A stretch of 62,759 bases of DNA, filler included, from Collodictyon triciliatum (taxonomy: Eukaryota), in the NCBI GenBank assembly GCA_043381765.1. It is 10 parts of 10 records of this genome, joined end to end, with 100 filler letters (N's around TTAATTAATTAA, not from the genome) between each part and the next. Parts side by side here need not be neighbours in the genome. Positions count along the whole stretch, not along the records: positions 27,195 to 33,886 come from JBHJMP010004306.1; 9 more parts are not named here. One strand, written 5' to 3'. Shown here piece by piece: positions 6,705 to 35,851 of this stretch. Under the pieces are notes generated by a model. It made no database searches and was not told the origin of the DNA. It saw only the letters and a list, made by a program, of their open reading frames with translations. The first letter of the stretch is position 1. Each line of letters starts with the position of its first letter. The position numbers and the translations under genes are program-made.

Positions 6705-6804
6705 NNNNNNNNNNNNNNNNNNNNNNNNNNNNNNNNNNNNNNNNNNNNTTAATTAATTAANNNNNNNNNNNNNNNNNNNNNNNNNNNNNNNNNNNNNNNN
6801 NNNN
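6705..6804. other. Artificial contig linker N44-TTAATTAATTAA-N44 (also 13505-13604, 20301-20400, 27095-27194, 33887-33986, 39563-39662, 46356-46455, 53141-53240, 59924-60023)
   Basis: An identical 100-nt spacer with stops in all six frames recurs about every 6.7 kb, usually next to simple repeats where short-read contigs break. Confidence 0.97.
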
Positions 6805-7199: not shown

Positions 7200-8774
7200 T
7201 CATGAGTAGAGCCTGATGTTCAGATGCATGGAAAAGACACAAAAGAAAAGCCACACGGAGCAGATCGGTCGGTGCAGCGGCCTCCATTTCTCGACATCCT
7301 CCGCTCGGATACTTCCATGCTGTATTTCGTGGCTCAGAGATGCTATATCACCAACCATTTCGAATCCGAGCTGGACCAATGTTTGATACAAGTATTCTTG
7401 AATGGAAGAGATGGGCTGGAATGCTTCGCTTGAAGACTCGATCAACGGATGAATAAAGTACATCAGAAGCGGGGCTAGAAATAATGCACTTATCTCCGAT
7501 GATATTTCATCAAAAATGTATGTCGCCTGATGGACTACAGATTCTGCAACAAAACGGTCTTCAGCCTCGGCCCGACTTCCATCGCCACGTACCTCGTCTG
7601 GCTCGTCTCCTGTGCTGCGTATGTCATGCAGTCCGTCCAAAGGTGAAACTCGTGTGTTTATCTTTCGCCTCAAGGGTAAGAGGGTTGATGGAAAGAAAGA
7701 TTTCCATGTGCGTAGGAATCGGAACGACCATCTCATCCTTCGTCGGAATGTGAGTGCAGACAATATCTCCAAGGAAGCACTGGCCATGTTAACTAGAACA
7801 AACCTGAAGGATATTGCATCGTTTGTCGAAAGGCTTGAGATTAAGATGCGCCCAATAAATTGTATGTACAGATTGTTAATCTTGTTCTGGGCTGATCTTT
7901 GTGTCATGTGCTCTGGTGATAGATTGATTATCACTCTGTATTGGTACCAGTCGGAGACCGAGAAACACATCGGGAACACGATGAAGCGAAAAAATAGCTG
8001 GGTATAGAATGCAGACTTCATATATACGGATAAAATGTTGAAAAATATGAAATTCACAAAGATATTGTACCCCAACAGCCCTTTGAACAGAGCCAAAGGC
8101 GATCCATCCTTTGTCAACTCGAATCGCTTTTCTTGCAACTCACTGATGTTATTTGGCTTTTTGCATTTTACTATTGCTACGAGACCGATCGCGAGGAATA
8201 TTATGCTGAGCGCGTATCTTACATTAACCATGCTTGGGTCGGCTTTGAAATCTGGCAAGTAATAGTACAGAACATCGAAGATGAGCATCGGGAAAACAGC
8301 AAAAGCCAGTGCATTTTTCGCGAATTGGAAGCTGAAAATGTAGATAGTGGTCATCGATAAGGAGAGCCAGAATGTTATCAACCTCAAAAGAATCAGGGTG
8401 TCTTGGTAAAGTATCTTCTCCACAGCACCCAGCAAAACAGGACTGAGAACCAGAGCAGGCAGATAGTAAATCCATAAGACGGCCATGTTCGCAGCCAAAG
8501 TCGCAGCAATCTTCGAAACCAAAGTAAGCCAAACAAACGTGGCTTCCTTTCCTGCGCTATGGAAACTCCTTTTCAAGTGCGTGGTGGTATTCTGGGATAT
8601 GTTGTACGGCACATGATTGCCACACACCGACTGCTGCGATTTGTGATTATGCTCATCGGCCTCTCCTGCGGATGCTGGTTCACTCATGGCGGCCCGCTCT
8701 TTTCCTGCAAATGTTTTCCTGCAAATGTTTTCCTGCAAATGTTTTCCTGCGATCAGTACGCGAGTCATGGACAT
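7200..8774 (-). CDS. Uncharacterised intronless multipass membrane protein (true start may be 8687, MSEPAS)
   Basis: Uninterrupted 524-aa ORF with many hydrophobic segments. No family recognised. Confidence 0.7.
   Translation of the reverse strand: MSMTRVLIAGKHLQENICRKTFAGKERAAMSEPASAGEADEHNHKSQQSVCGNHVPYNISQNTTTHLKRSFHSAGKEATFVWLTLVSKIAATLAANMAVLWIYYLPALVLSPVLLGAVEKILYQDTLILLRLITFWLSLSMTTIYIFSFQFAKNALAFAVFPMLIFDVLYYYLPDFKADPSMVNVRYALSIIFLAIGLVAIVKCKKPNNISELQEKRFELTKDGSPLALFKGLLGYNIFVNFIFFNILSVYMKSAFYTQLFFRFIVFPMCFSVSDWYQYRVIINLSPEHMTQRSAQNKINNLYIQFIGRILISSLSTNDAISFRFVLVNMASASLEILSALTFRRRMRWSFRFLRTWKSFFPSTLLPLRRKINTRVSPLDGLHDIRSTGDEPDEVRGDGSRAEAEDRFVAESVVHQATYIFDEISSEISALFLAPLLMYFIHPLIESSSEAFQPISSIQEYLYQTLVQLGFEMVGDIASLSHEIQHGSIRAEDVEKWRPLHRPICSVWLFFCVFSMHLNIRLYS
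8701..8750. repeat. 15-bp tandem repeat (TTTCCTGCAAATGTT) x~3.3
   Basis: Directly visible at 8701-8750. Confidence 0.85.
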
Positions 8775-9512
8775 ACCATCTTTAGTCCTGCGCTATGCAA
8801 GGTGTTTCTTGGCCAGGAACAGAGTGACAACCCCCGACGAGCCACACCAAATCAGAATTTCAATATTTCTGGAAATTACAACAGAAGTTATATGTGCATG
8901 TGTGAACCTTCCAAGCGAGACTTGCGCAAGCCCCAAATTTCGCTGTTTCGTGAATTCGAAATGAAAATAGAGAGCATGATTTTCGGTGATTGAAACCTCA
9001 TAATTCCGAATATGGCGTACGTATTGAATAGATGTCACTTTCAACAATTTACACATTAGGCAGGTGCACACATGTTTTGGGTTATCCACTAATTACCGCA
9101 ACAACCAATTTGACTCAAGGATATTATTTAAATCAGCACACACAGTGTTAAGATAAAAAAACCGATATTAAAATATATTCCACATATGTGCCAATCATAC
9201 AATTCATATCCATAACCATATATAGAAAAGGGCAGAGCGAACAGCCTTTGATGCCTTTGTTGATCAACCGATACCAACAAACGCTAGAACACTCCATCCT
9301 CCTGGATCGCGAGTCAAGACACAAGCCAGTCCTTCTGCAAACACGCACGAACTTGTCAGCAGGTCTTCGCTTTGCTGCGTTGCGCTGTGCAGTCTTGCGC
9401 TGTGTCTACAGACAGACAGTGGCAGTTGCGACCTGTTGCGCGATAAATGCCAATCAATCAAACAGATGATTCTTAGTTGAACACCGTTTGTAGCCTTCTC
9501 TGACGCGCCGCA

Positions 9513-13346: not shown

Positions 13347-13604
13347 CTGGAGAGTAAGGCTGATTAGTGGGGATACAAATGGCATGCTTATGGCCTTGAG
13401 AAAACAAAAAAGAAAAAAGAAAAGAAAAAAGAAAAGAAAAAAGAAAAGAAAAAAGAAAAGAAAAAAGAAAAGAAAAAAGAAAAGAAAAAAGAAAAGAAAA
13501 AAGANNNNNNNNNNNNNNNNNNNNNNNNNNNNNNNNNNNNNNNNNNNNTTAATTAATTAANNNNNNNNNNNNNNNNNNNNNNNNNNNNNNNNNNNNNNNN
13601 NNNN

Positions 13605-19620: not shown

Positions 19621-20400
19621 GGTTGGATATGTTGTGGGAGGTATAAGGCAAATCAGGGTCTATGAACTTCAGCATTATAAAGACCCTGTTCATCCAGGTT
19701 CCCAAGCCCCTGTTGTCTTTTTATGCATAATTCACATGCGCTCATGTTATTGTAACATAACACAACCCTTCGTACCTTCAAAATAAAAAGTAACCACGCG
19801 TTGTTCGAACCCACTAGCCACGCGGTGTGTAATCATAATTAGATAAACTCAATACTCGTCCACGTGTCTCATAAAAAAAAAATATCAAAGGAAATGAATA
19901 TGGAAATAAAATCTGAACGCAGTGATTTTTTCAGATTTACTCAAGTAATCCAATTAATATCGTTTGAGTTCTTTTAGAATGAAAAATCAAGTGACCAAAC
20001 AAGAAAAATGTGTCAGGCATCGAGTAGATTCTTTTTTTTCTCCCTTGAAAGAGTCTTCCGACCTTTCCTGACACTTTATAGCATACCCTATTTTGCTTCC
20101 TGAGAAAAATAATATAAAAACGACAATAAAAAAAAACAGTATGTTTATTTTTGTTTTGTTTTTTGTTTTTATTTTTGTTTTTATTTTTGTTTTTATTTTT
20201 ATTTTTATCTTTATTTTTATCTTTATTTTTATCTTTATTTTTATCTTTATTTTTATCTTTATTTTTATCTTTATTTTTATCTTTATTTTTATCTTTATTT
20301 NNNNNNNNNNNNNNNNNNNNNNNNNNNNNNNNNNNNNNNNNNNNTTAATTAATTAANNNNNNNNNNNNNNNNNNNNNNNNNNNNNNNNNNNNNNNNNNNN

Positions 20401-26985: not shown

Positions 26986-27028
26986 AATTATTGTTGTTTT
27001 TTGTTTTGTTTTGTTTTGTTTTGTTTTG

Positions 27029-27059
<31 letters not shown>

Positions 27060-27436
27060 TTGTTTTTTTTGTTTTTTTTGTTTTTTTGTTTTTTNNNNNN
27101 NNNNNNNNNNNNNNNNNNNNNNNNNNNNNNNNNNNNNNTTAATTAATTAANNNNNNNNNNNNNNNNNNNNNNNNNNNNNNNNNNNNNNNNNNNNAAAAAC
27201 AAAAAACAAAAAACAAAAAACAAAAAACAAAAAACAAAAAACAAAAAACAAAAAACAAAAAACAAAAAACAAAAAACAAAAAACAAAAAAAAACCTTTCG
27301 TTTCCACTACTTAGCCTTTTTATTCAGTATCACAACTCAGGCAAGAAATCCTTTCTTTTCCAAATATTTTTTCGAAACTAACATTCATTTTCACCATTTG
27401 ATGCAAGCCTCACAACGAAAACAGCCTAGCTGAGCA

Positions 27437-30400
27437 ATGGAAATCGAGTGCAACTGTCCCGGTTGTGGGGAAACCTTTGCCGATCCGCGCATTCTTCCCT
27501 GTAAGCACGTTTATTGCGTTAACTGCATCCAAAAGATGAGCAAAACGCCAGTCGATCTGCTCGACGCAAGCAAAGGGACAAAGTTGTGCTGCTTCATTTG
27601 TGAGGCTGTGTTTACACTCACGAATGGAAAACCAGATAGTCTGCCGCAGGCTGAGGAATATTTAGGCCATGTTGAGACATATAAAAATGCGGCAACGTTT
27701 GTGAGCTTCAAATGCGAAGAGCATGCAGAAAAAGAGGCAGTCAAGAGATGCCTGAGCGGATGCGGCCACATTTGCCAGGATTGTGTCTCTGCTCATGGAA
27801 CCTTGAGAATATTAAAAAGTCACCAACTTGAGTACGTCATTATCCATTTTACTTTCAATTTGCCAAATTAAAATAGGAAAAACATACCTGCAATCTGCAT
27901 GTAATTTGAATATTACATCTTTTCATTTACCTTTTCCATCTGTAAAGGGATATCGACAAAACAAGGCCTATGATTTTTGAGAGTGTCTGTTCGAAGCACG
28001 CACGACCTTTTAAAGATGTTTGTGGCAAGCTCACAGAAAACCCCTTCATGTGTGATACGTGCACTGGGAGTCACTTCAAAGAACTAGGCATTCACGAACA
28101 TGACAGCTATGAAGCTGGCACAAAGAAATTCTGTGACTCTCTCCAAGAAAACAAGATCAAAATCGTAAAAACCGGTGACTTGATCAAAGAAAGTGAAAAA
28201 AGCGTCGGGGAAAAGCGCAAAGAGGTATCCATCACAAATAATATTCGTACTTTTACAATGCAAACATGAAACCTCATTGTCTCTTTGGTAATAAATCAGA
28301 TTGAAAATTATATCTCGGAACTGAAGAAAGAAGCGTCGAGCGAGTTCGAAAAAGCAAAGAAGGCTCTTGCCGAAGAGGAAAGGCGATTCATGGAGAAGGT
28401 TCATATTTTTAAGACTGTCGATTTTATCTTTGAAATACTAGAGTGTTCCGTAATTCATTTATATAAGATTTTCCACCCTTTCTGTCTCATTTAGATTGAC
28501 CGATTTAAAAAATCCATTCTGGGGCCATATGTTGCACTCGGGGATTTCTTGGAAACGTTCAAAGTGCATCTGGCGTATTCATCAAAGTTTATTGACGAGT
28601 CTATGGTTGTGTTCACAAAAGATAAGTCACCTCTTAAGCTACCAGCTGCAAAGCGCATTTCAGACTGTGTATTGCAGAAAAGAATAGTGCAAATTCCTAA
28701 AGAAACCCAAGTTTTCTCCGAGAAAATCCCAACGTTGGTTCTTTTTCCAAAAGAATCTTCTGAAGTCGAGTCTGTGCCAATACCTCAACAACTAGGCACC
28801 TTAACTGTACACAGACCGACTGAAAAGACTCTCAATCCAAGCGCACCAGCACAGTCCATCCAACCAGCCAAATCAACACCAGTGGCCGTTCCAGTCAAAG
28901 AAACTCCAAAAGAATCTGTAACAACCGAAATGAACCGAGTGATTGACCAGATTGGAGGGTCAACAGCTGCAATCAACCAAAAGAAATCAACGGGATGCCC
29001 AGAGTATAGCGCATTGGGACAGCAGATGGACGAGCTACAAACTTTAATGCAACAGACCGAATTCAAAGAAGCGCCAAAGAAAGAGATCGGCGGCATTTTC
29101 GACAAAGTTTTCGAAGTAATCAAAAAGGTATGGTTCAATTCAAATGAATAGCTCTCCAAAATGAATGTTATGCTTTTTTTCTTACACCCTCAATTTCTTA
29201 TCAAGGACGTAAGTTTGGCATCTTTCTAAAATATTATGTGAATCAGCCCATATTTTCTAATCTTGTCAAATTATATTAGTTGGTGAGTATATTTAATACG
29301 TTAAATGCATTAAAAGAAATAAATAGTGTGACTGAATCTATATAATTTTTCTTTAAACCTTTCAGTTCTGATAACATTTTTGTTTGTATCGATTTCAGGT
29401 GACGTTTATTTTCAATTCATCGTTATTATGATTTATTTGAATTAAAAATTGAAATATAAGTACCAAATTTTCTTCGCTAAAAATTATTTATTATCGTAGA
29501 AAGTAAGTTTTTTTTTTTTACTTGAAAGAATAATTACACTTAAATCATAAGGAAAATATATATTGTTTATGTAAATTATGAATATGAGTATGAAATATGG
29601 CTTTTGAGTATTTTAACTGGCAGATAAGAAAACATCAAAATTTAACATATCGCTTAATGTTACTTATTTGTGTTTTAAATAATAGTATGTAATTTTATAT
29701 CGTTCTTGAATGATACTCTTGTATGAAAAAGACAAAAAAAAATACACTTTTTATGTTTATATATTATGGCCATGATAAAAGGATACGTGTGTTCAACAGA
29801 CACCCACAAATTCGCAATAATAAAACAGTATTTATATGATTTCTATGAATTATTTGTGTATAATGATAGGATGTAAGTTTTTATTATTTATCAATGATAC
29901 TGAATTATTAAAATGAGAAGAAGTGTACATTTGTTTATGTAACTATATGATGGATATGATTAAAGGAAATAGTTGTTCAACAGACACATACGAATTCGCC
30001 ATTATAAAACAATATTTATATGATTTCTGTTACTTATTTGTGTAAAATCATAGTCTGTAAGTTTTCTTGTTCTCGAATGACACTCTATTATGAGAATGAC
30101 AAAAAAGAAGCATACATTTGTTTTTATTAATATGTGATGGATATGATAAAAGGAAATGTGTGTCCAACAGACACATACGAATTCACAATAACACAATATT
30201 TATATGATTTCTGTGACTTGTTTGTGTAAAATCATAGTATGTAAGTTTTTATTGTTCTTGAATGATAATCTATTCTGAAAATGACAAGAAATAAGCATGC
30301 ATTTGTTAATGTATATATGTGATGACTATGATAAAAAAAATTATATCGGTGTTCAACAGACACACGCGAATTCACAATAACACAATATTTATATGATTTA

Positions 30401-33400
30401 TGTTACTTATTTATGTAAAATCATAGGCTGTAAGTTCTTTTAATTCTTGAATGATACTATAATCTGAAAATGACAAGAAATAAGCATGCATTTGTGTTTA
30501 TTCATATGTAATGGCTATGATTAAAGGAAATGTGTGTTCAACAGACGTACACGAATTCGCAATAACACAATATTTATATGATTTATGTTACTTATTTATG
30601 TAAAATCATAGGTGGTAAGTTTTTATTATTCATGAATGATACTATATTATGAGAAAAAGACAAAAAATACACTTTTTATGTAAATATATGATGACTTTGA
30701 TAAAAAAAATTATATCGGTGTTCAACAGACACACGCGAATTCACAACAAATCAATATTTGTATAACTTCTGTGACTTATTTGTGTATGAATAATAGTTCG
30801 TAATTTTTTATTATTCTTGAATGATAATCTATTATGAAAATGACAAGAAAGAAGCATATATTTGTTTATGTAAATATGGAATGAATATGATAAAAGGAAA
30901 TGTGTGTCCAACAGACATACACTTATTCGCAATAATACAATATTTATATGATTTCTGTTACTTATTTGTGTAAAATCATAGCGAGTAAGTTCTAATTACA
31001 TAGGAATGATAATCTATTGAGAATGACAAAGAAATAAGCATACATTTGTTTATGTAAATATGTGATGGCTATCATTAAAGGATATGTGCGTTCAACAGAC
31101 ACATACGAATTCACAATAACACAATATTTATATGATTTCTGTGACTTATTTGTGTAAAATCATAGTATGTAAGTTCTTATTATTCTTGAATGACAATCTA
31201 TTATGAAAATGACTAGAAATAAGCATACATTTGTTTATGTAAATATGTGATGGCTATGATTAAAGGAAATGTGTGTTCAATAGACACAAACGAATTCACA
31301 AAAAACAATATTTATATGATTTATTTGACTTATTTGTGTAAAATCATAGTCTGTAAGTTCTTATTGTTCTTGAATGATTATCTATTGTGAAAATGACAAG
31401 AAGAAAGCATATATTTGTTTATGTATATACGTAATGGATACGATAAAAGGATATGTGCGTTCAACAGACACATACGAATTAACAATAATACAATATTTAT
31501 ATGATTTCTGCTACTCATTTGGGTATAATCATAGGGAGTAAGTTTTTATTGTTCTTGAATGATAATCTATTCTGAAAATGACAAAGAAATAAGCATACAT
31601 TTGTTAATGTAAATATATGATGACTTTGATAAAAAAAAATTATATCGGTGTTCAACAGACACACGCGAATTCACAACAAATCAATATTTGTATAACTTCT
31701 GTGACTTATTTGTGTATAATCATAGGCTGTAAGTTCTTTTAATTCTTGAATGATACTATTTTCTAAAAATGACAAGAAATAAGCATACATTTGTTTATGT
31801 ATACATGTGATGACTATGATAAAAGGAAATGTGTGTTCAATAGACACAAACGAATTCACAAAAAACAATATTTATATGATTTATTTGACTTATTTGTGTA
31901 AAATCATAGCCTGTAAGTTTTTACTATTCTTGAATGACAATCTATTATGAGAATGACAAGAAATAAGCATACAATTGTTTATGTAAATATGTGATGACCA
32001 TGATAAAAGGATATGTGTGTTCAACAGACACATACGAATTAACAATAATACAATATTCATATGATTTTTTTACTTATTTGTGTGTAATCATAGAGAGTGA
32101 GCTTTTACTGTTCTTGAATGATACTGTATTCTGAGAGTGACAAGAAATAAGCATGCATTTGTTTATGTAAATATGTGATGGATATGATAAAAGGAAATGT
32201 GTCTTCAACAGACACACACGAATTCACAATAACACAATATTTATATGATTTCTGTTACTTATTTGTGTAAAATCATAGTCTGTAAGTTTTTATTGTTCTT
32301 GAATCATACTGTATTATGAAAATTACAAGAAATAAGCATATATTTGTTTTTATAAATTTGTGGTGGCTATGATAAAAGGATATGTGTGTTCAACAGACAC
32401 ACGAATTCGCAATGATACAATATTCATATGATTTCTGTTACTTATATGTGTAAAATCATAGTCTGTAAGTTTTTATTGTTCTTGAATCATACTGTATTAT
32501 GAAAATTACAAGAAATAAGCATATATTTGTTCATGTAAATATGTGATGGCTATGATTAAAGGAAATGTGTTCAACAGACACATACGAATTCACAATAACA
32601 CAATATTTATATGATTTCTGTTACTTCTTTGTGTATAATCATAGGGAGTGAGTTTTTACTATGTTTGAAGGTTACATGGTGTGGTATATTTTTTCAAGGA
32701 ATTGGAGCTCACCAGTTATGAATTGAAACCGCGAATATCTGGTTGATTTATATGATAGTTAAAATACGATTATATTTTTATTCCAATCTCAATCCAAGTT
32801 TGTAAGTTTTTTCTGCAAATGTCACAATCATACAATTTCATGCATTTTAATTTCGTTCAAGAGCTGATATTAATTTTTGTTTAATCTTATCCTGGATGGC
32901 TATTTCAGAGTGTGAGTTTGAAGTCAATATAGATTTCATAAACACAATAGTTAGAAGTATGTTTAATTCTCAACCAATTAAGAAAATTAAAAATTCAAAC
33001 ATCATTTACGCAGAAACCAGCGGATGTAATTTGGCAATATAAATTTGGAAGACGTATATTGATATTATATTATTCACCTTACTAAACACATATTCATACT
33101 TAGCTGGTAACTAAAAGAGAAATGATTTTTATCATTCATAATTTTCAAACTATATCAGCTGAATTATGTTAAATTAATTATAGGATATGGTAAGTCAGAT
33201 TCTATATCGTTTGTTTACCCCAAAAGAACAAATCGTATTTTAAATTAATTTTCATTTTCAATCTTCGATAAAATTTTAGAATATCGTGAGTTTTCAACAC
33301 TGATTGTATTTAATATTATCTCTAAAAAACAAGTTTTGATTGTTTATTTACAAATTTCACGTATGATTATGATTTTTTAATCAGAATGTAAAAATTCAAT

Positions 33401-33847
33401 TTTATTAGAATCTTATTTCAAAACATCAGTAACCATATTCTTAATTCTAATTTTAATCACTAAATTATAAAGGAAGTATGATTGTTCAATAATTTGATTC
33501 ATAATTGAAAATACCTGTTTGCTTAATCAACCATTTGTGAAAAGGGAGTAATTCTTTTGATATTTTGAATATTATTCAATAAAATGAAAAATAATATTAT
33601 ATGCATTTTATTTATCTTAAAATCAGGATGTAAGATAACAGAATCGAAAAGAATATTTATTTTGTAGAACTGTTTATATTAACATTAAATAATTCACCAA
33701 CAGAAAGTAATTTGTCAATAGATAGAAAATTGATAGAAATTCTTTCTACTCACACATTTTTGTAAGCTGGCTGTAAGAATGATGGATTGAAATCAAACAC
33801 AAATAAAAATCCATAATATTAAGCACTTCTTTCTCTAGCTTCAGCTG
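27437..33847 (+). CDS. TRIM-like E3 ligase: C3HC4 RING, B-box(es), coiled coil, linker, then a C-terminal domain encoded by ~33 micro-exons (3' end truncated at contig end)
   Basis: RING CPGC...LPCKHVYCVNC...CFIC; B-box CEEHAEKEAVKRCLSGCGHICQDCVSAH; second B-box-like CSKH...CDTC; coiled coil. Ordinary introns at 27832-27947, ~28225-28299 and ~28399-28494. The phase-0 donor AAG|GTATGG at 29127/29128 leads into the micro-exon chain. Confidence 0.85.
29206..33847 (+). CDS. Chain of ~33 micro-exons (mostly 3 nt = one codon)
   Basis: Each is AG|exon|GT. Start positions: 29206 GAC, 29280 TTG, 29500 AAA, 29686 TAT, 29870 GAT, 30054 TCT, 30238 TAT, 30427 GCT, 30612 GTG, 30797 TTC, 30982 CGA, 31166 TAT, 31350 TCT, 31535 GGA, 31726 GCT, 31910 CCT, 32094 AGA, 32279 TCT, 32462 TCT, 32645 GGA, 32799 TTT, 32909 AGT, 33014 AAACCAGCGGAT, 33104 CTG, 33184 GATATG, 33280 AATATC, 33385 AAT, 33473 GAA, 33545 GGA, 33627 GAT, 33704 AAA, 33767 CTGGCT, 33845 CTG (or 33839 CTTCAGCTG). 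All lengths are multiples of 3 and none contains a stop. Confidence 0.82.
29503..32647 (+). repeat. Tandem array of 17 homologous 180-188-nt introns (unit ~184 bp including the 3-nt exon)
   Basis: Recurring unit GTAAGTT...TTCTTGAATGA...GTTCAACAGACAC...GAATTC...TATATGATTT...ACTTATTTGTGTAAAATCATAG. The first copy (29503-29685) is the most diverged. Confidence 0.95.
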
Positions 33848-34249
33848 GTAAAATGGATAATAATAAAATCAAAAATTTCAGTACAGNNNNNNNNNNNNNN
33901 NNNNNNNNNNNNNNNNNNNNNNNNNNNNNNTTAATTAATTAANNNNNNNNNNNNNNNNNNNNNNNNNNNNNNNNNNNNNNNNNNNNTCTCTTTTCTTCTC
34001 TTCTCTTCTCTTCTCTTCTCTTCTCTTCTCTTCTCTTCTCTTCTCTTCTCTTCTCTTCTCTTCTCTTCTCTTCTCTTCTCTTCTCCTGCTTTTTTTTTAA
34101 ATAAATTCTATCGCTCTTTTATTAGCAGTCTTTTTGAGTGAGGCTGGAGGGTTGTCTCGCATCGTCTTTTTAATCGAAAAGTGGATGTGATAAGCTAGAG
34201 GCTGAACTAGACTCCTTAATTTTGAATTCTATCCCGTTGTATCTCATAG

Positions 34250-35851
34250 GAAAGTTGAATGGGCCAGAGAGCGGGCGAAACAACATGGATACAAAGCATA
34301 CATCGACATCTTTGAGTTTGTGCTATGCGGAAAGACCGCATTCCCCTCATATGTCTATTACCGTGATGCATACATTTACATATGCATAATATCTTTCGTC
34401 ATTAAAATAAAAAAGCGGTGTTGTCTTTTAGGAAATACTTTATCCCACCTGACCCAAATAAAAGGTCTGCAACTCCGAACACATCCTTTCTTGGTAATTT
34501 ATTGAAAGATACTGTAAGTTATAATAGATATCAGATGGAGAAACAAAATGAGGAGGCAGAGAGAACAGAACGGTTCGATGTTTTTCATCATCAATATGCC
34601 AGATTATGCTTTATTTTTTTTTTGTTAAAATTGATAGAAACAAAAAAAATTACTACAGGGAATGTTTTCGAAAACTTAAGCAGCTTGAAGATATGATGAG
34701 GTTTTTTCTTTTTTGAGAATAAAAAAGATAGAGAGAGAAATTCGAAACACATAGTTTAAAATCTTTGGCGATATATTCAGTTTTTTTACCGTGTTTTAAT
34801 TTTCTTCGTATCCTTAACATTATCTGTTTTTATTGGTTTTATATCTCTCTTTAAAAAAATTGATTTATATCCCTTTCTTTTTACGCAAATTTTCTCCTTT
34901 ATTCGATTCTTTTTACGTGTATTCACCACTTCTTACTCTTCTATTCACATTCACAACCCATATTATTATTCTCCCTAATCGTCCAACTACATCACGAAAC
35001 CATTAACATACAGAATGAACCGCCGTTTAATGAATCCGACTCCTCAGCATCGCCATGAATACAGGAGTGAAGGAGCGTCAAATGCACCATCTAGATGGGA
35101 ACTTAAGCGCAGCCCATCTCCCAGCAGCCAAAAAAAAGTGGACAAGGCCACACTCAAGAAAAAAGTTAGCGCATCTCCACCAAGAAAAGCAAGGGAAGTA
35201 TTCAAGTCAAGACCGCAGGACAAGTCAGATACCCATTCGCATTCCACAAACAGCTCATCAGATGGCGCAAGCACACCATCCTCAGATTCCTGCTCTGATT
35301 CTGCTGATAGTGATTTTGGGCGAGGAGATTTTATCGGCCCGAGCGCACCTACACAACACAACGAGATGGGCACGATTCAACAGAGGGTGATTGGACCCGA
35401 ATGCAAACCAGGCGAGATGCAATCAAGGCAGAGAGGTGAATCAAAGAAAGAATTTACTAGACCCGTCATCGCAAAGGTAGTCAAAGGCCGCGGGATGGTT
35501 GGCAGGTCTCGGATGGATGGGTACTTTGAAGATTTGGACGAGGTTATGGACGAAAATCACCCCCGACGAATTGAAATGGGTCGCAAACTACTGCTTGCCT
35601 ACCAGACGCCAAAGAAAGAGCGCCAAGACAGAAAGGAAGAAGAACAAGTCCACAAGAAAAAGAAAAATGGCTCCAGCGAAGAGGGCGAATGCCCGTCAGA
35701 GGACTCAGAGGAAAGGAGAAAGCGGCGTAAGAAAAGGAAGGAAGAAAAGAAGCTTAAGAAAAAGATAAAGAAAGAGCACAAAAGGGAGAAGCGCAGACTC
35801 AAAAAACTGAAGGAGAAAGAGTCCAAGGAAGACGGAATTAGTTCGGAGTAA
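34250..35851 (+). CDS. Conserved uncharacterised eukaryotic protein with basic/acidic C-terminus (spliced; 5' end uncertain)
   Basis: Exons read KVEWARERAKQHGYKAYIDIF, KYFIPPDPNKRSATPNTSFLGNLLKDTVSYN and ORF 35015-35851 with KGRGMVGRSRMDGYF and a Lys-rich tail. They resemble PNxRFL and RGRGxxGSRMD motifs I recall from uncharacterised plant/fungal proteins (not verified). Confidence 0.55.

What the first reader, a model, noticed from the sequence alone, without database searches (positions are those of the whole stretch)
29128..33847. A protein domain written one codon per exon: ~33 micro-exons (mostly 3 nt) continue a TRIM-like E3 gene
Seen in sequence: after the phase-0 donor at 29127/8, the motif AG|NNN|GT recurs 22 times in a row (29206-32911). 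Eleven more exons of 3, 6 or 12 nt follow up to the contig end. All lengths are multiples of 3. The concatenate has no stop in the TRIM frame, while the other two frames hit TGA. Triplets often start with G and mostly end in T/A, as real codons in an AT-rich gene would. Most of these donors are strong (GTAAGT, GTGAGT, GTAATT), unlike the degenerate donors of ordinary genes in this window. The spliced product is ...VFEVIKK-DLKYDSYAVFRYSGAPRSSGFSKPADLDMNINEGDKLAL. Established knowledge: isolated 3-nt micro-exons and Schistosoma micro-exon genes are known, but I know of no gene with dozens of consecutive single-codon exons. Inference: these exons are spliced, and skipping any subset keeps the frame, which would allow combinatorial single-residue variants.
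Basis: partly seen in the sequence, partly recalled or inferred. Interest (0 to 1): 0.96.

Follow-up and report, generated by a model that had tools for sequence, protein, structure and literature searches.

The report
Gene tail written in single-codon exons
Downstream of an ordinary RING-finger gene lie 33 tiny exon-like pieces, most only one codon long and each framed by splice signals; if RNA confirms that they are joined, this would be the most extreme micro-exon gene described.

Summary
After the phase-0 donor at 29127/8 there are 33 AG-(3n)-GT pieces up to the contig end at 33886. Of these, 29 are 3 nt, and together they give 39 codons with no stop.

The pattern is still not a repeat artefact:
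- Within the repeat, the triplet is the most variable spot (0.66 against 0.19 differences per site), set between invariant splice motifs.
- In the 1.6 kb outside the repeat, AG-N3-GTR occurs 11 times against 1.3 expected.
- All 21 GTRAGT donors have an AG 3 or 6 nt upstream.
- The triplets look like this gene's codons.

One RNA-derived contig of a related organism leaves the genome exactly at 29127/8. It carries 84 letters that fit nowhere on the laid stretch, then runs into repeat-intron sequence. I could not read those letters, so splicing is supported but not shown.

Best reading (about 0.68): a real array of single-codon exons, spliced sequentially. Combinatorial skipping is untested. Four literature searches found no description of such an array.

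The parts
27437..27831 (+). Exon 1 of the host gene: start codon, RING finger, B-box-like stretch
   Evidence: Pfam gives zf-RING_UBOX at 3.1e-07 and zf-C3HC4 at 6.2e-07, both above their cut-offs. zf-B_box scores 0.005, below its cut-off. The 8 PDB sequence hits are all TRIM RINGs, E 0.0014-0.0082. The exon end comes from the joint 27829->27948 in X1 and X2 and from the loose end of X3 at 27948.
27948..28224 (+). Exon 2 (92 in-frame codons, Cys/His-rich)
   Evidence: Joint 28222->28298 with GT..AG (cut +2) in X1, X2 and X3. Translated. No Pfam hit.
28300..28398 (+). Exon 3 (33 codons)
   Evidence: Joints 28222->28298 and 28396->28493 with GT..AG in X2 and X3.
28495..29127 (+). Exon 4 (211 codons); it ends in a phase-0 donor, AAG|GTATGG
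   Evidence: The four exons sum to 1404 nt, which is 468 codons without a stop. X2 record 14 lies on 28946-29128 and then leaves the genome.
29128..29205 (+). First intron of the series; if retained, the frame stops at TAG 29149-29151
   Evidence: The retained-intron tail is 7 codons long. An X2 contig joins across this intron (table 5).
29206..29502 (+). Three single-codon exons before the main repeat: 29206-29208, 29280-29282, 29500-29502
   Evidence: Each is AG-NNN-GTRAGT, with pyrimidine-rich stretches upstream.
29503..32644 (+). 17 homologous introns of 180-188 nt, one after another, each running exactly from GT to AG (184-bp tandem repeat)
   Evidence: TRF reports 29658-32669, period 184, 16.3 copies. 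blastn with one intron gives 17 matches, each spanning query positions 1 to 181/182, and no comparable match elsewhere in the window. There is no Rfam match, no conserved fold and no terminal inverted repeat.
29686..32647 (+). 17 single-codon exons inside the repeat, starting at 29686, 29870, 30054, 30238, 30427, 30612, 30797, 30982, 31166, 31350, 31535, 31726, 31910, 32094, 32279, 32462 and 32645
   Evidence: Pairwise difference at the triplet is 0.659 per site against 0.192 in the flanks. The triplet is the top 3-column window of 177, permutation p 1.5e-5. Parsimony steps are 7, 9 and 5 against a mean of 1.58 in 184 other columns.
32799..33285 (+). Six micro-exons after the repeat in non-homologous introns: 32799-32801, 32909-32911, 33014-33025 (12 nt), 33104-33106, 33184-33189, 33280-33285
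   Evidence: All have AG/GT flanks. Four of the six have GTRAGT donors. Introns are 77-151 nt.
33385..33847 (+). Seven further candidates with weaker donors: 33385-33387, 33473-33475, 33545-33547, 33627-33629, 33704-33706, 33767-33772, 33845-33847
   Evidence: In 33287-33887, AG-N3-GTR occurs 6 times on the + strand. Every spacing from 0 to 14 that is not a multiple of 3 occurs 0 times. The candidates lie 63-88 nt apart.
33887..33986 (.). End of the contig (N44, a 12-base linker, N44); the gene's 3' end is not in the data
   Evidence: List of N runs; sequence.

Best explanation
The contig 27195-33886 carries the 5' part of a RING/B-box (TRIM-like) gene with four ordinary exons (468 codons). 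Its reading frame is still open at a phase-0 donor at 29127. From there to the contig end the coding sequence continues as a chain of at least 33 micro-exons, 29 of them a single codon, separated by introns of 60-217 nt.

The exons are too short to be recognised as exons, so each intron must be recognised as a unit (intron definition). The introns are probably removed one after another, from 5' to 3'. Once an intron is out, the growing exon plus the new codon sits in front of the next strong GTAAGT donor, as at a recursive-splicing ratchet point, except that one codon stays behind at each step. The near-consensus intron side of these donors makes up for the arbitrary exon side.

Seventeen units (intron plus codon) arose by tandem duplication. 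Their introns stayed alike while the codons became or remained different, which points to selection on the encoded residues. The product is a C-terminal extension of at least 39 residues with no known fold.

Shown: the anatomy, the statistics, the splicing of the three upstream introns, and use of the 29127/8 boundary in one RNA-derived contig. Inferred: inclusion of the individual codons, the order of splicing, and translation.
For: (1) All 33 of 33 pieces have AG/GT flanks and lengths that are multiples of 3. They give 39 codons with no stop in frame, where P(no stop) is 0.024 under intron composition.
(2) All 21 GTRAGT sites on the + strand of 29128-33887 have an AG 3 or 6 nt upstream. The nearest AG is at 3 nt in 18 and at 6 nt in 2; one site has an AG at both 1 and 3 nt. 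Elsewhere in the window only 5 of 47 sites do. The - strand of the region has a single GTRAGT.
(3) Outside the repeat, AG-N3-GTR occurs 11 times against 1.34 expected, and 0 of 5000 simulations reach 11.
(4) Inside the repeat the homology stops exactly at GT and AG. The triplet is the most variable 3-column window of 177: 0.659 against 0.192 differences per site, p 1.5e-5. It needs 4.4 times the parsimony steps of other columns. The flanking ATAG and GT.AG are invariant or nearly so.
(5) The triplets resemble this gene's codons. G+C is 46 of 117 letters (39%), against 44% in the CDS and 25% in the introns. The codon-usage log-likelihood is +9.8 bits against -33.5 +/- 11.4 for random intron triplets, reached by 0 of 5000. 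For the 21 non-repeat codons alone it is +7.4 against -18.1 +/- 8.5, reached by a fraction of 0.0002.
(6) Intron sizes of 60-217 nt match the gene's confirmed introns, which skip 75-118 nt.
(7) Donors compensate. Ordinary exons end in GAG or AAG (three of four) before weak GTATCC, GTTCAT and GTATGG. Micro-exons have arbitrary last letters before GTRAGT in 21 of 33.
(8) RNA. In run X2, which shows GT..AG joints at the upstream introns, record 14 (581 nt, depth 25) lies on 28946-29128. It then has 84 letters that fit nowhere on 27400-30250, and then lies on 30070-30250, the intron part of a repeat unit (tables 5 and 8). My inference is that the match ends one base into the intron, so the next letter is not the T of an unspliced GT. 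The first micro-exon starts with G, as that requires. The 85 letters after 29127, minus the 13 intron letters before 30070, leave 72 letters, or 24 codons.
Against: The 84 letters were not shown, so no spliced micro-exon has been read. Only one contig, from one run of a related organism (about 95% identical in the exons), crosses 29127. That run's label as RNA is the tool's guess, although its spliced joints support it. The same contig sets contain unspliced repeat units, including a micro-exon with both neighbouring introns, at word depths of 31-71. That is as high as the exons at 16-53, so much of this RNA is unspliced, retained or from DNA. The placement at 30070 is at about 87% identity in a repeat and is arbitrary among the units. 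The stop codon and poly(A) site are not in the contig. The 39 residues have no homologue or family, and exon 4 has only one weak homologue. The last seven donors are weak, for example GTAAAA and GTATGA. My four literature searches found no case of consecutive 3-nt exons being spliced.
Confidence: 0.68

Rival explanations
1. The splice sites are used, but the codons are incidental. The chain would be a stepwise (recursive-type) way of removing or processing a long 3' region in an organism that handles only short introns. Alternatively it is a regulated, largely unproductive splicing path. Any retained intron stops translation within a few codons, which would give truncated proteins or transcripts that are degraded.
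For: Each site is an acceptor placed next to a strong donor, as at ratchet points (abstracts of 10.1101/006163 and PMC8605326). Unspliced units are as deep as the exons in the RNA-derived contigs, and record 14 is spliced upstream but unspliced downstream. Retaining any one of 14 repeat introns ends the frame after 6 codons with very similar tails.
Against: A non-coding ratchet would have no reason to keep every spacer at a multiple of 3, to avoid stops in 39 codons, or to show codon-like composition. It also would not explain why the triplets change 4.4 times faster than the intron columns. Ratchet points leave no nucleotides behind; these would leave 3.
Confidence: 0.15
2. Nothing is spliced here. 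The gene ends by read-through at TAG 29149-29151. What follows is a non-coding AT-rich minisatellite and spacer whose splice-like motifs are copies of one accidental motif.
For: 17 of the sites are tandem copies of one unit. Unspliced units are present in the contig sets. The only homologue of exon 4 (P0002, 159 aa) also ends 9 codons after the position matching 29127.
Against: The pattern holds in the 1.6 kb of non-repeat sequence, with 11 sites against 1.34 expected. All 7 GTRAGT donors outside the well-conserved repeat copies have an AG 3 or 6 nt upstream. A neutral satellite would not have its most variable 3 columns exactly between its most conserved motifs. The X2 contig leaves the genome at 29127/8 instead of reading on. 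The tail of P0002 begins with V, as a GTN donor read through would.
Confidence: 0.1
3. The repeat units are alternatives rather than a chain. Only one or a few of the 17 codons would be chosen per transcript, as in arrays of mutually exclusive exons, so that one position of the protein can take different residues.
For: The splice signals of the units are nearly identical, so any donor could pair with any later acceptor. The triplets are diversified: 10 different triplets among the 17 units.
Against: 84 letters, not 3-15, separate the exon end from the next unspliced intron in the X2 contig. No docking or selector pairing or conserved structure was found in the introns. The flanking non-repeat micro-exons do not fit a choice model.
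Confidence: 0.04

Closest known systems
Schistosoma micro-exon genes (MEGs)
   Same: Both have runs of very short exons whose lengths are multiples of 3, so that skipping keeps the frame. In MEGs alternative splicing is reported to create protein variants. The abstracts of 10.1101/2023.06.21.545858 and PMC10526429 give exon sizes of 3-81 bp (passages and abstract seen).
   Different: MEG introns are long (0.2-5 kb), the exons span a wide size range, and the products are small secreted proteins. Here 29 of 33 exons are exactly one codon and the introns are 60-217 nt. Also, 17 introns are tandem copies of one sequence, and the chain is appended to a 468-codon RING/B-box gene built of ordinary exons. 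No sequence relation to MEGs was found or tested.
Recursive splicing at ratchet points (Drosophila long introns)
   Same: An acceptor sits directly beside a strong donor, and removal is stepwise, with a 5' splice site used again after each step (abstracts of 10.1101/006163 and PMC8605326).
   Different: Ratchet points are zero-nucleotide exons in very long introns and leave nothing in the mRNA. Here 3, 6 or 12 nt lie between AG and GT and would stay in the mRNA, and each step removes only 60-217 nt.
Isolated 3-nt micro-exons (for example in RPS24 and cytohesin-1)
   Same: They show that a single-codon exon can be spliced in and can change a protein (abstract of PMC12207440; listing of PMC6314551).
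   Different: Those exons are single and flanked by normal exons, not 22 in a row.
Introners / introner-like elements (recalled, not read here)
   Same: Many near-identical introns that begin and end at the splice sites.
   Different: Introners are dispersed over many genes by transposition. Here the copies are head to tail in one gene. They have no terminal inverted repeats, no matching flanking triplets that would mark target duplications, and no further copy in the window's other ~56 kb.
TRIM / RBCC E3 ligases
   Same: An N-terminal RING whose best structural-database relatives are TRIM RINGs, followed by Cys/His-rich B-box-like stretches.
   Different: The B-box scores below Pfam's cut-off, the coiled coil was not tested, and no SPRY, NHL or other usual C-terminal domain is present in the contig.

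Membership tests
Micro-exon gene architecture (Schistosoma MEG type) | Consecutive very short exons, all with lengths that are multiples of 3 | tested here: met
   33 of 33 pieces are multiples of 3, and 29 are 3 nt. That they are exons is inferred, not shown.
Micro-exon gene architecture (Schistosoma MEG type) | Micro-exons make up most of the coding sequence of a small secreted protein | tested here: not met
   1404 nt of ordinary exons precede 117 nt of micro-exons. The N-terminus is a RING finger, not a signal peptide. The 3' end of the gene is missing.
Micro-exon gene architecture (Schistosoma MEG type) | Transcript variants made by skipping micro-exons | not testable with these tools
   Only assembled contigs of four runs could be laid, and only once.
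Recursive-splicing ratchet point | Acceptor AG directly abutting donor GT (zero-nucleotide exon) | tested here: not met
   3, 6 or 12 nt lie between AG and GT at all 33 sites.
Recursive-splicing ratchet point | Stepwise 5'-to-3' removal, seen as intermediates that are spliced upstream and unspliced downstream | tested here: inconclusive
   X2 record 14 has this shape, but its middle 84 letters were not shown.
Introner / mobile intron family | Near-identical introns dispersed in many genes | tested here: inconclusive
   There are 17 copies, all in this one array, and none in the rest of the 62.8-kb window. No whole genome is held.
Introner / mobile intron family | Transposon marks: terminal inverted repeats or target-site duplications | tested here: not met
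   The inverted repeats found are not at the intron ends. The triplets flanking each intron mostly differ.
TRIM / RBCC | N-terminal RING finger | tested here: met
   zf-RING_UBOX scores 30.7 bits (cut-off 25.2) and zf-C3HC4 scores 29.6 bits (cut-off 21). The PDB hits are all TRIM RINGs.
TRIM / RBCC | B-box zinc finger after the RING | tested here: inconclusive
   zf-B_box scores E 0.005 and 17.4 bits, below the cut-off of 24.1. Exon 2 is Cys/His-rich but has no Pfam hit.
TRIM / RBCC | Coiled coil and a C-terminal substrate-binding domain | not tested
   No coiled-coil prediction was run. Exons 3 and 4 have no Pfam hit. The C-terminus lies beyond the contig.

The most novel reading that the evidence does not exclude
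The chain is a device for making and evolving protein variety one residue at a time. A TRIM-like ligase, from a class often used in innate immunity, would get its C-terminal recognition tail assembled codon by codon. Every exon is frame-neutral and the repeat units share the same splice signals, so stochastic skipping could give a very large set of tails from one gene. Unequal crossing-over would add or drop single residues, and the triplets would be under diversifying selection while the introns are kept uniform.
Probability: 0.15. Interest if true: 0.97.

Novelty: new variant of a known kind. Interest (0 to 1): 0.85.

Why it matters
If the codons are joined as predicted, this is the limiting case of exon size and number: 22 single-codon exons in a row and at least 33 micro-exons in one gene. 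It would show that a spliceosome working by intron definition can build coding sequence three bases at a time. It would provide a natural substrate for studying sequential splicing and the balance between the exon and intron sides of the donor. It would also show a way for a protein to grow by one residue per tandem duplication. In practice, gene finders and read aligners cannot see such exons and would end this gene at the TAG in the first intron, so similar genes may be truncated in many annotations. If skipping occurs, it would be a new route to combinatorial protein diversity.

Tried and rejected
A genome-wide scan for similar arrays was therefore impossible.
- Protein searches with the end of exon 4 (100 aa, near lengths) and with all of exon 4 (longer lengths) found nothing. 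The exhaustive search found one weak homologue, P0002 (E 4.5e-6, from an 864-nt contig). Its ORF ends 9 codons past the position matching 29127. That fits either an intron at the same place or a natural end, so it decides nothing.
- Two scans of the metagenome contigs found no relative. One used peptide patterns of the exon end. The other used a pattern centred on the repeat's micro-exon.
- No contig of X1, X3 or X4 covers 29129-29700. I do not count this as evidence against read-through, because intron sequence of relatives may fall under the 90% likeness limit, and because coverage in X3 and X4 is thin.
- Depths of contigs were not used to rank expression.
- I looked for an RNA gene in the introns. 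There is no Rfam match at E <= 1. The consensus fold is only -5.3 kcal/mol with 1 compensated pair of 19. A single intron folds no better than shuffles, z +1.49.
- I looked for a transposon and found no terminal inverted repeats.
- I looked for a conventional ORF on either strand of 29200-33887. The longest is 84 aa and lies inside the repeat.
- A loose motif (AG-N3/6-GTR) is too common in the G+C-richer parts of the window to find other clusters.
- The protein atlas call on a mitochondrial-carrier ORF gave no useful hint of the organism.
- One search had two micro-exons placed one base off. This was corrected.
Full report
**What is there.** The window is not one stretch of genome. It is about ten contigs of roughly 6.6 kb, joined by N44-linker-N44 spacers (N runs listed). 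The finding lies on the contig 27195-33886, so the 'neighbours' beyond those limits need not be neighbours in the genome.

The contig starts with a gene of four ordinary exons: 27437-27831, 27948-28224, 28300-28398 and 28495-29127. Together they make 1404 nt, or 468 codons, with no stop. Exon 1 has a RING finger above Pfam's cut-offs and a B-box match below the cut-off. Its 8 hits among solved structures are all TRIM RINGs at E 0.0014-0.0082.

Contigs of public runs confirm the three introns:
- The joint 28222->28298 (GT..AG) appears in X1, X2 and X3.
- The joint 28396->28493 appears in X2 and X3.
- The joint 27829->27948 appears in X1 and X2, with a matching loose end in X3.

X3 and X4 are freshwater metatranscriptomes with pieces 95-100% identical to the window. 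X1 and X2 are related organisms at about 90-99% identity (table 1).

**The observation.** All are flanked by AG and GT. Of them, 29 are 3 nt, three are 6 nt and one is 12 nt. Together they give 39 codons with no stop in frame, against 2 and 6 stops in the other frames. Two pieces needed a one-base correction of my own first coordinates. The introns between them are 60-217 nt. AGNNNGTRAGT occurs 22 times in the window against 2.15 expected, and 19 of the 22 are in 29204-32917 on the + strand.

The stretch 29658-32669 is a 184-bp tandem repeat of 16.3 copies at 81% matches. A blastn search with one intron (31169-31350) finds 17 copies between 29503 and 32644. Every match runs from the G of GT to the G of AG, leaving the triplets out. 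Nothing comparable occurs elsewhere in the window; the best other match is 51 nt at 73% identity, E 0.01. So 17 of the '22 in a row' are copies of one intron-plus-codon unit, and the raw motif count overstates their independence.

**Why it is still not an artefact of the repeat.**
- Within the repeat. In an alignment of the 17 units centred on the triplet, the three triplet columns rank 3rd, 1st and 7th of 187 for pairwise difference. They form the most variable 3-column window of 177, at 0.659 against 0.192 differences per site in the flanks. A random choice of three columns reaches this in a fraction of 1.5e-5 of 200,000 draws.
- The eight columns before the triplet and the seven after it are invariant or nearly so.
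- On a tree built from the flanks, the triplet columns need 7, 9 and 5 changes, against a mean of 1.58 in the 184 other columns. Only 4 of those 184 need 6 or more.
- The most similar unit pairs do share their triplet: two pairs at 6.6% and 7.6% flank divergence. So the unit, codon included, is what duplicates. Other pairs at about 8% divergence differ at 2-3 of the 3 positions.
- A neutral satellite gives no reason for this pattern. Selection on what the triplets encode does.
- Outside the repeat. In the 1611 bases of non-repeat sequence (29128-29499 and 32648-33886), AG-N3-GTR occurs 11 times on the + strand and AG-N6-GTR 4 times. Spacings of 0, 1, 2, 4, 5, 7, 8, 10 and 11 occur 1, 3, 2, 0, 1, 1, 2, 1 and 1 times. 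First-order Markov simulations give 1.34 +/- 1.17, with a maximum of 7 in 5000.
- In the last 600 bases alone, spacing 3 occurs 6 times and every spacing from 0 to 14 that is not a multiple of 3 occurs 0 times. The sites lie 63-88 nt apart.
- All 21 GTRAGT on the + strand of the region have an AG 3 or 6 nt upstream, against 5 of 47 in the rest of the window on both strands. The region's - strand has a single GTRAGT.

**Coding character.**
- The triplets have 46 G+C of 117 letters, or 39%. The gene's ordinary exons have 44% and the introns between the micro-exons 25%.
- Scored with the codon usage of the 468 upstream codons against intron composition, the 39 codons reach +9.8 bits. Random intron triplets give -33.5 +/- 11.4, and 0 of 5000 reach the observed value.
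- The 21 codons outside the repeat alone reach +7.4 against -18.1 +/- 8.5, a fraction of 0.0002.
- The chance of no stop in 39 such triplets is 0.024. This null does not condition on the AG/GT flanks, so I treat it as supportive, not decisive.

**Splice signals.**
- Donors are GTAAGT in 17 pieces, GTGAGT in 4 and GTAATT in 5, with seven weaker ones mostly near the contig end. Acceptors are TAG in 22, CAG in 6 and AAG in 5.
- The gene's four ordinary donors are TGA|GTACGT, GAG|GTATCC, AAG|GTTCAT and AAG|GTATGG.
- Ordinary exons therefore offer the usual exon-side letters in front of a weak intron side. The micro-exons offer arbitrary exon letters in front of a near-consensus intron side. This is what one expects if U1 pairing has to be supplied by the intron side alone (established knowledge of 5' splice-site pairing; an inference here).

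**RNA evidence at the key boundary.** In run X2, record 14 (581 nt, word depth 25) lies on 28946-29128. It then has 84 letters that lie nowhere on the laid stretch 27400-30250. It then lies on 30070-30250 with 23 mismatches and 2 gaps, which is the intron part of a repeat unit, and goes on into further unit sequence (tables 5 and 8).

The contig therefore leaves the genome at the predicted donor and does not read on towards the TAG at 29149. The rest is my inference. The match ends one base into the intron, so the following letter is not the T of an unspliced GT. The first micro-exon begins with G, which explains that one extra matched base. The 85 letters after 29127, minus the 13 intron letters that precede 30070, leave 72 letters, or 24 codons.

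The tool did not print the 84 letters and its cap was one call, so the spliced chain itself remains unseen. The contig also shows that at least one micro-exon further down is unspliced on both sides. This fits an intermediate that is spliced upstream and not yet downstream, or intron retention.

**What speaks against or limits the reading.**
- Unspliced repeat units occur in X1 and X2 at word depths of 31-71, as high as the exons at 16-53. Part of this may be repeat k-mers adding up, but it means much of this RNA is not fully spliced, or that some DNA is present.
- Only one contig from one related organism crosses the boundary, and its landing place within the repeat is arbitrary.
- The gene's end is beyond the contig.
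- The 39 residues and exon 4 have no informative relatives.
- The one weak homologue, P0002, ends 9 codons after the position matching 29127, with a tail that starts with V. This fits a read-through of an intron at the same place or a natural end.
- The last seven candidate exons have weak donors and rest mainly on the spacing statistics.

**Other readings checked.** The introns are not a known RNA family and have no conserved or unusually stable fold. They have no terminal inverted repeats. Neither strand has a conventional ORF; the longest is 84 aa. If retained, each intron stops the frame quickly. Fourteen of the repeat introns stop it after 6 codons with very similar tails, so partial splicing would give a ladder of truncated proteins.

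**Mechanism proposed.** The spliceosome recognises introns, not exons, in this gene; all confirmed and proposed introns are 60-217 nt. Removal is sequential, probably 5' to 3'. Each step joins the growing exon to one more codon, which then stands before the next strong donor. This works like a ratchet point in recursive splicing but is not one, because 3-12 nt remain in the mRNA (membership feature tested and not met). The repeat grew by duplication of intron-plus-codon units. The introns stayed uniform while the codons diverged about four times faster, which I read as selection on the residues. Whether codons are skipped in some transcripts is open.

**Comparison and novelty.** The closest known kind is the micro-exon gene of schistosomes. 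It has exons of 3-81 bp, symmetric, with long introns, encoding secreted proteins diversified by splicing (abstracts of 10.1101/2023.06.21.545858 and PMC10526429, and passages of the former). This case differs in four ways:
- It is almost purely single-codon.
- It has short introns.
- It includes a tandem array of one intron.
- It sits at the end of an ordinary RING/B-box gene.

Isolated 3-nt exons are known (PMC12207440 abstract; PMC6314551 listing). Four full-text searches found no description of runs of single-codon exons. They covered 3-nt or single-codon exons, consecutive, tandem or clustered micro-exons, and introners together with micro-exons. The library lacks most subscription journals, and supplements were not consulted. 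I rate it a new variant of a known kind and of high interest, with splicing supported but not yet demonstrated.

Noticed in passing
window 6705-6804, 13505-13604, 20301-20400, 27095-27194, 33887-33986, 39563-39662, 46356-46455, 53141-53240, 59924-60023: The window is a chain of about ten contigs of ~6.6 kb, joined by N44 plus a 12-base all-frame stop linker plus N44. Features on either side of a linker need not be genomic neighbours.
   Followed up: partly
window 26990-27094, 27195-27280, 33987-34085: Contigs end in microsatellites: (TTTTG)n before one linker, (AAAAAC)n after it, and (TCTCT)n at 97% matches after the next. This probably explains why the assembly broke there.
   Followed up: no
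window 27955-28087 and 28954-29123: Runs X1 and X2 each hold two different contigs on the same exon stretches, for example with 13 and 6 differences over 170 nt. These organisms therefore carry two diverged copies or alleles of the gene (table 8).
   Followed up: no
window 28201-28298: X2 has a second joint, 28201->28298, with 21 other letters between. This is a variant end of exon 2 in one copy of the gene (tables 5 and 5c).
   Followed up: no
P0002 against window 28495-29151: The only homologue of exon 4 in 1.84 billion representatives is a 159-aa protein from an 864-nt NCBI contig. It is 26% identical over 191 columns, and its ORF also stops 9 codons after the position matching the donor at 29127.
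   Followed up: partly
window 30225 (loose ends of X1 and X2): The related organisms hold an unspliced repeat unit whose triplet equals that of the window's unit at 31910-31912, while about 3 of the 27 neighbouring letters differ. This is a single hint that triplets are conserved between species (table 7).
   Followed up: no
window 29503-32644: Retention of any one of 14 repeat introns would end the protein after 6 further codons, with nearly the same short tail each time.
   Followed up: no
window 57731-58639 and 7200-8792: Other contigs carry long intron-free ORFs: a 302-aa mitochondrial carrier and a 530-aa membrane-like protein on the - strand. Their G+C is about 42-46%, against 25-30% in non-coding DNA.
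   Followed up: no
window 34206-34700 and 34979-35851: The next contig holds a small multi-exon gene and a 290-aa Lys/Arg/Glu/Ser-rich ORF on the + strand. Neither can be linked to the micro-exon gene, because a contig break lies between them.
   Followed up: no
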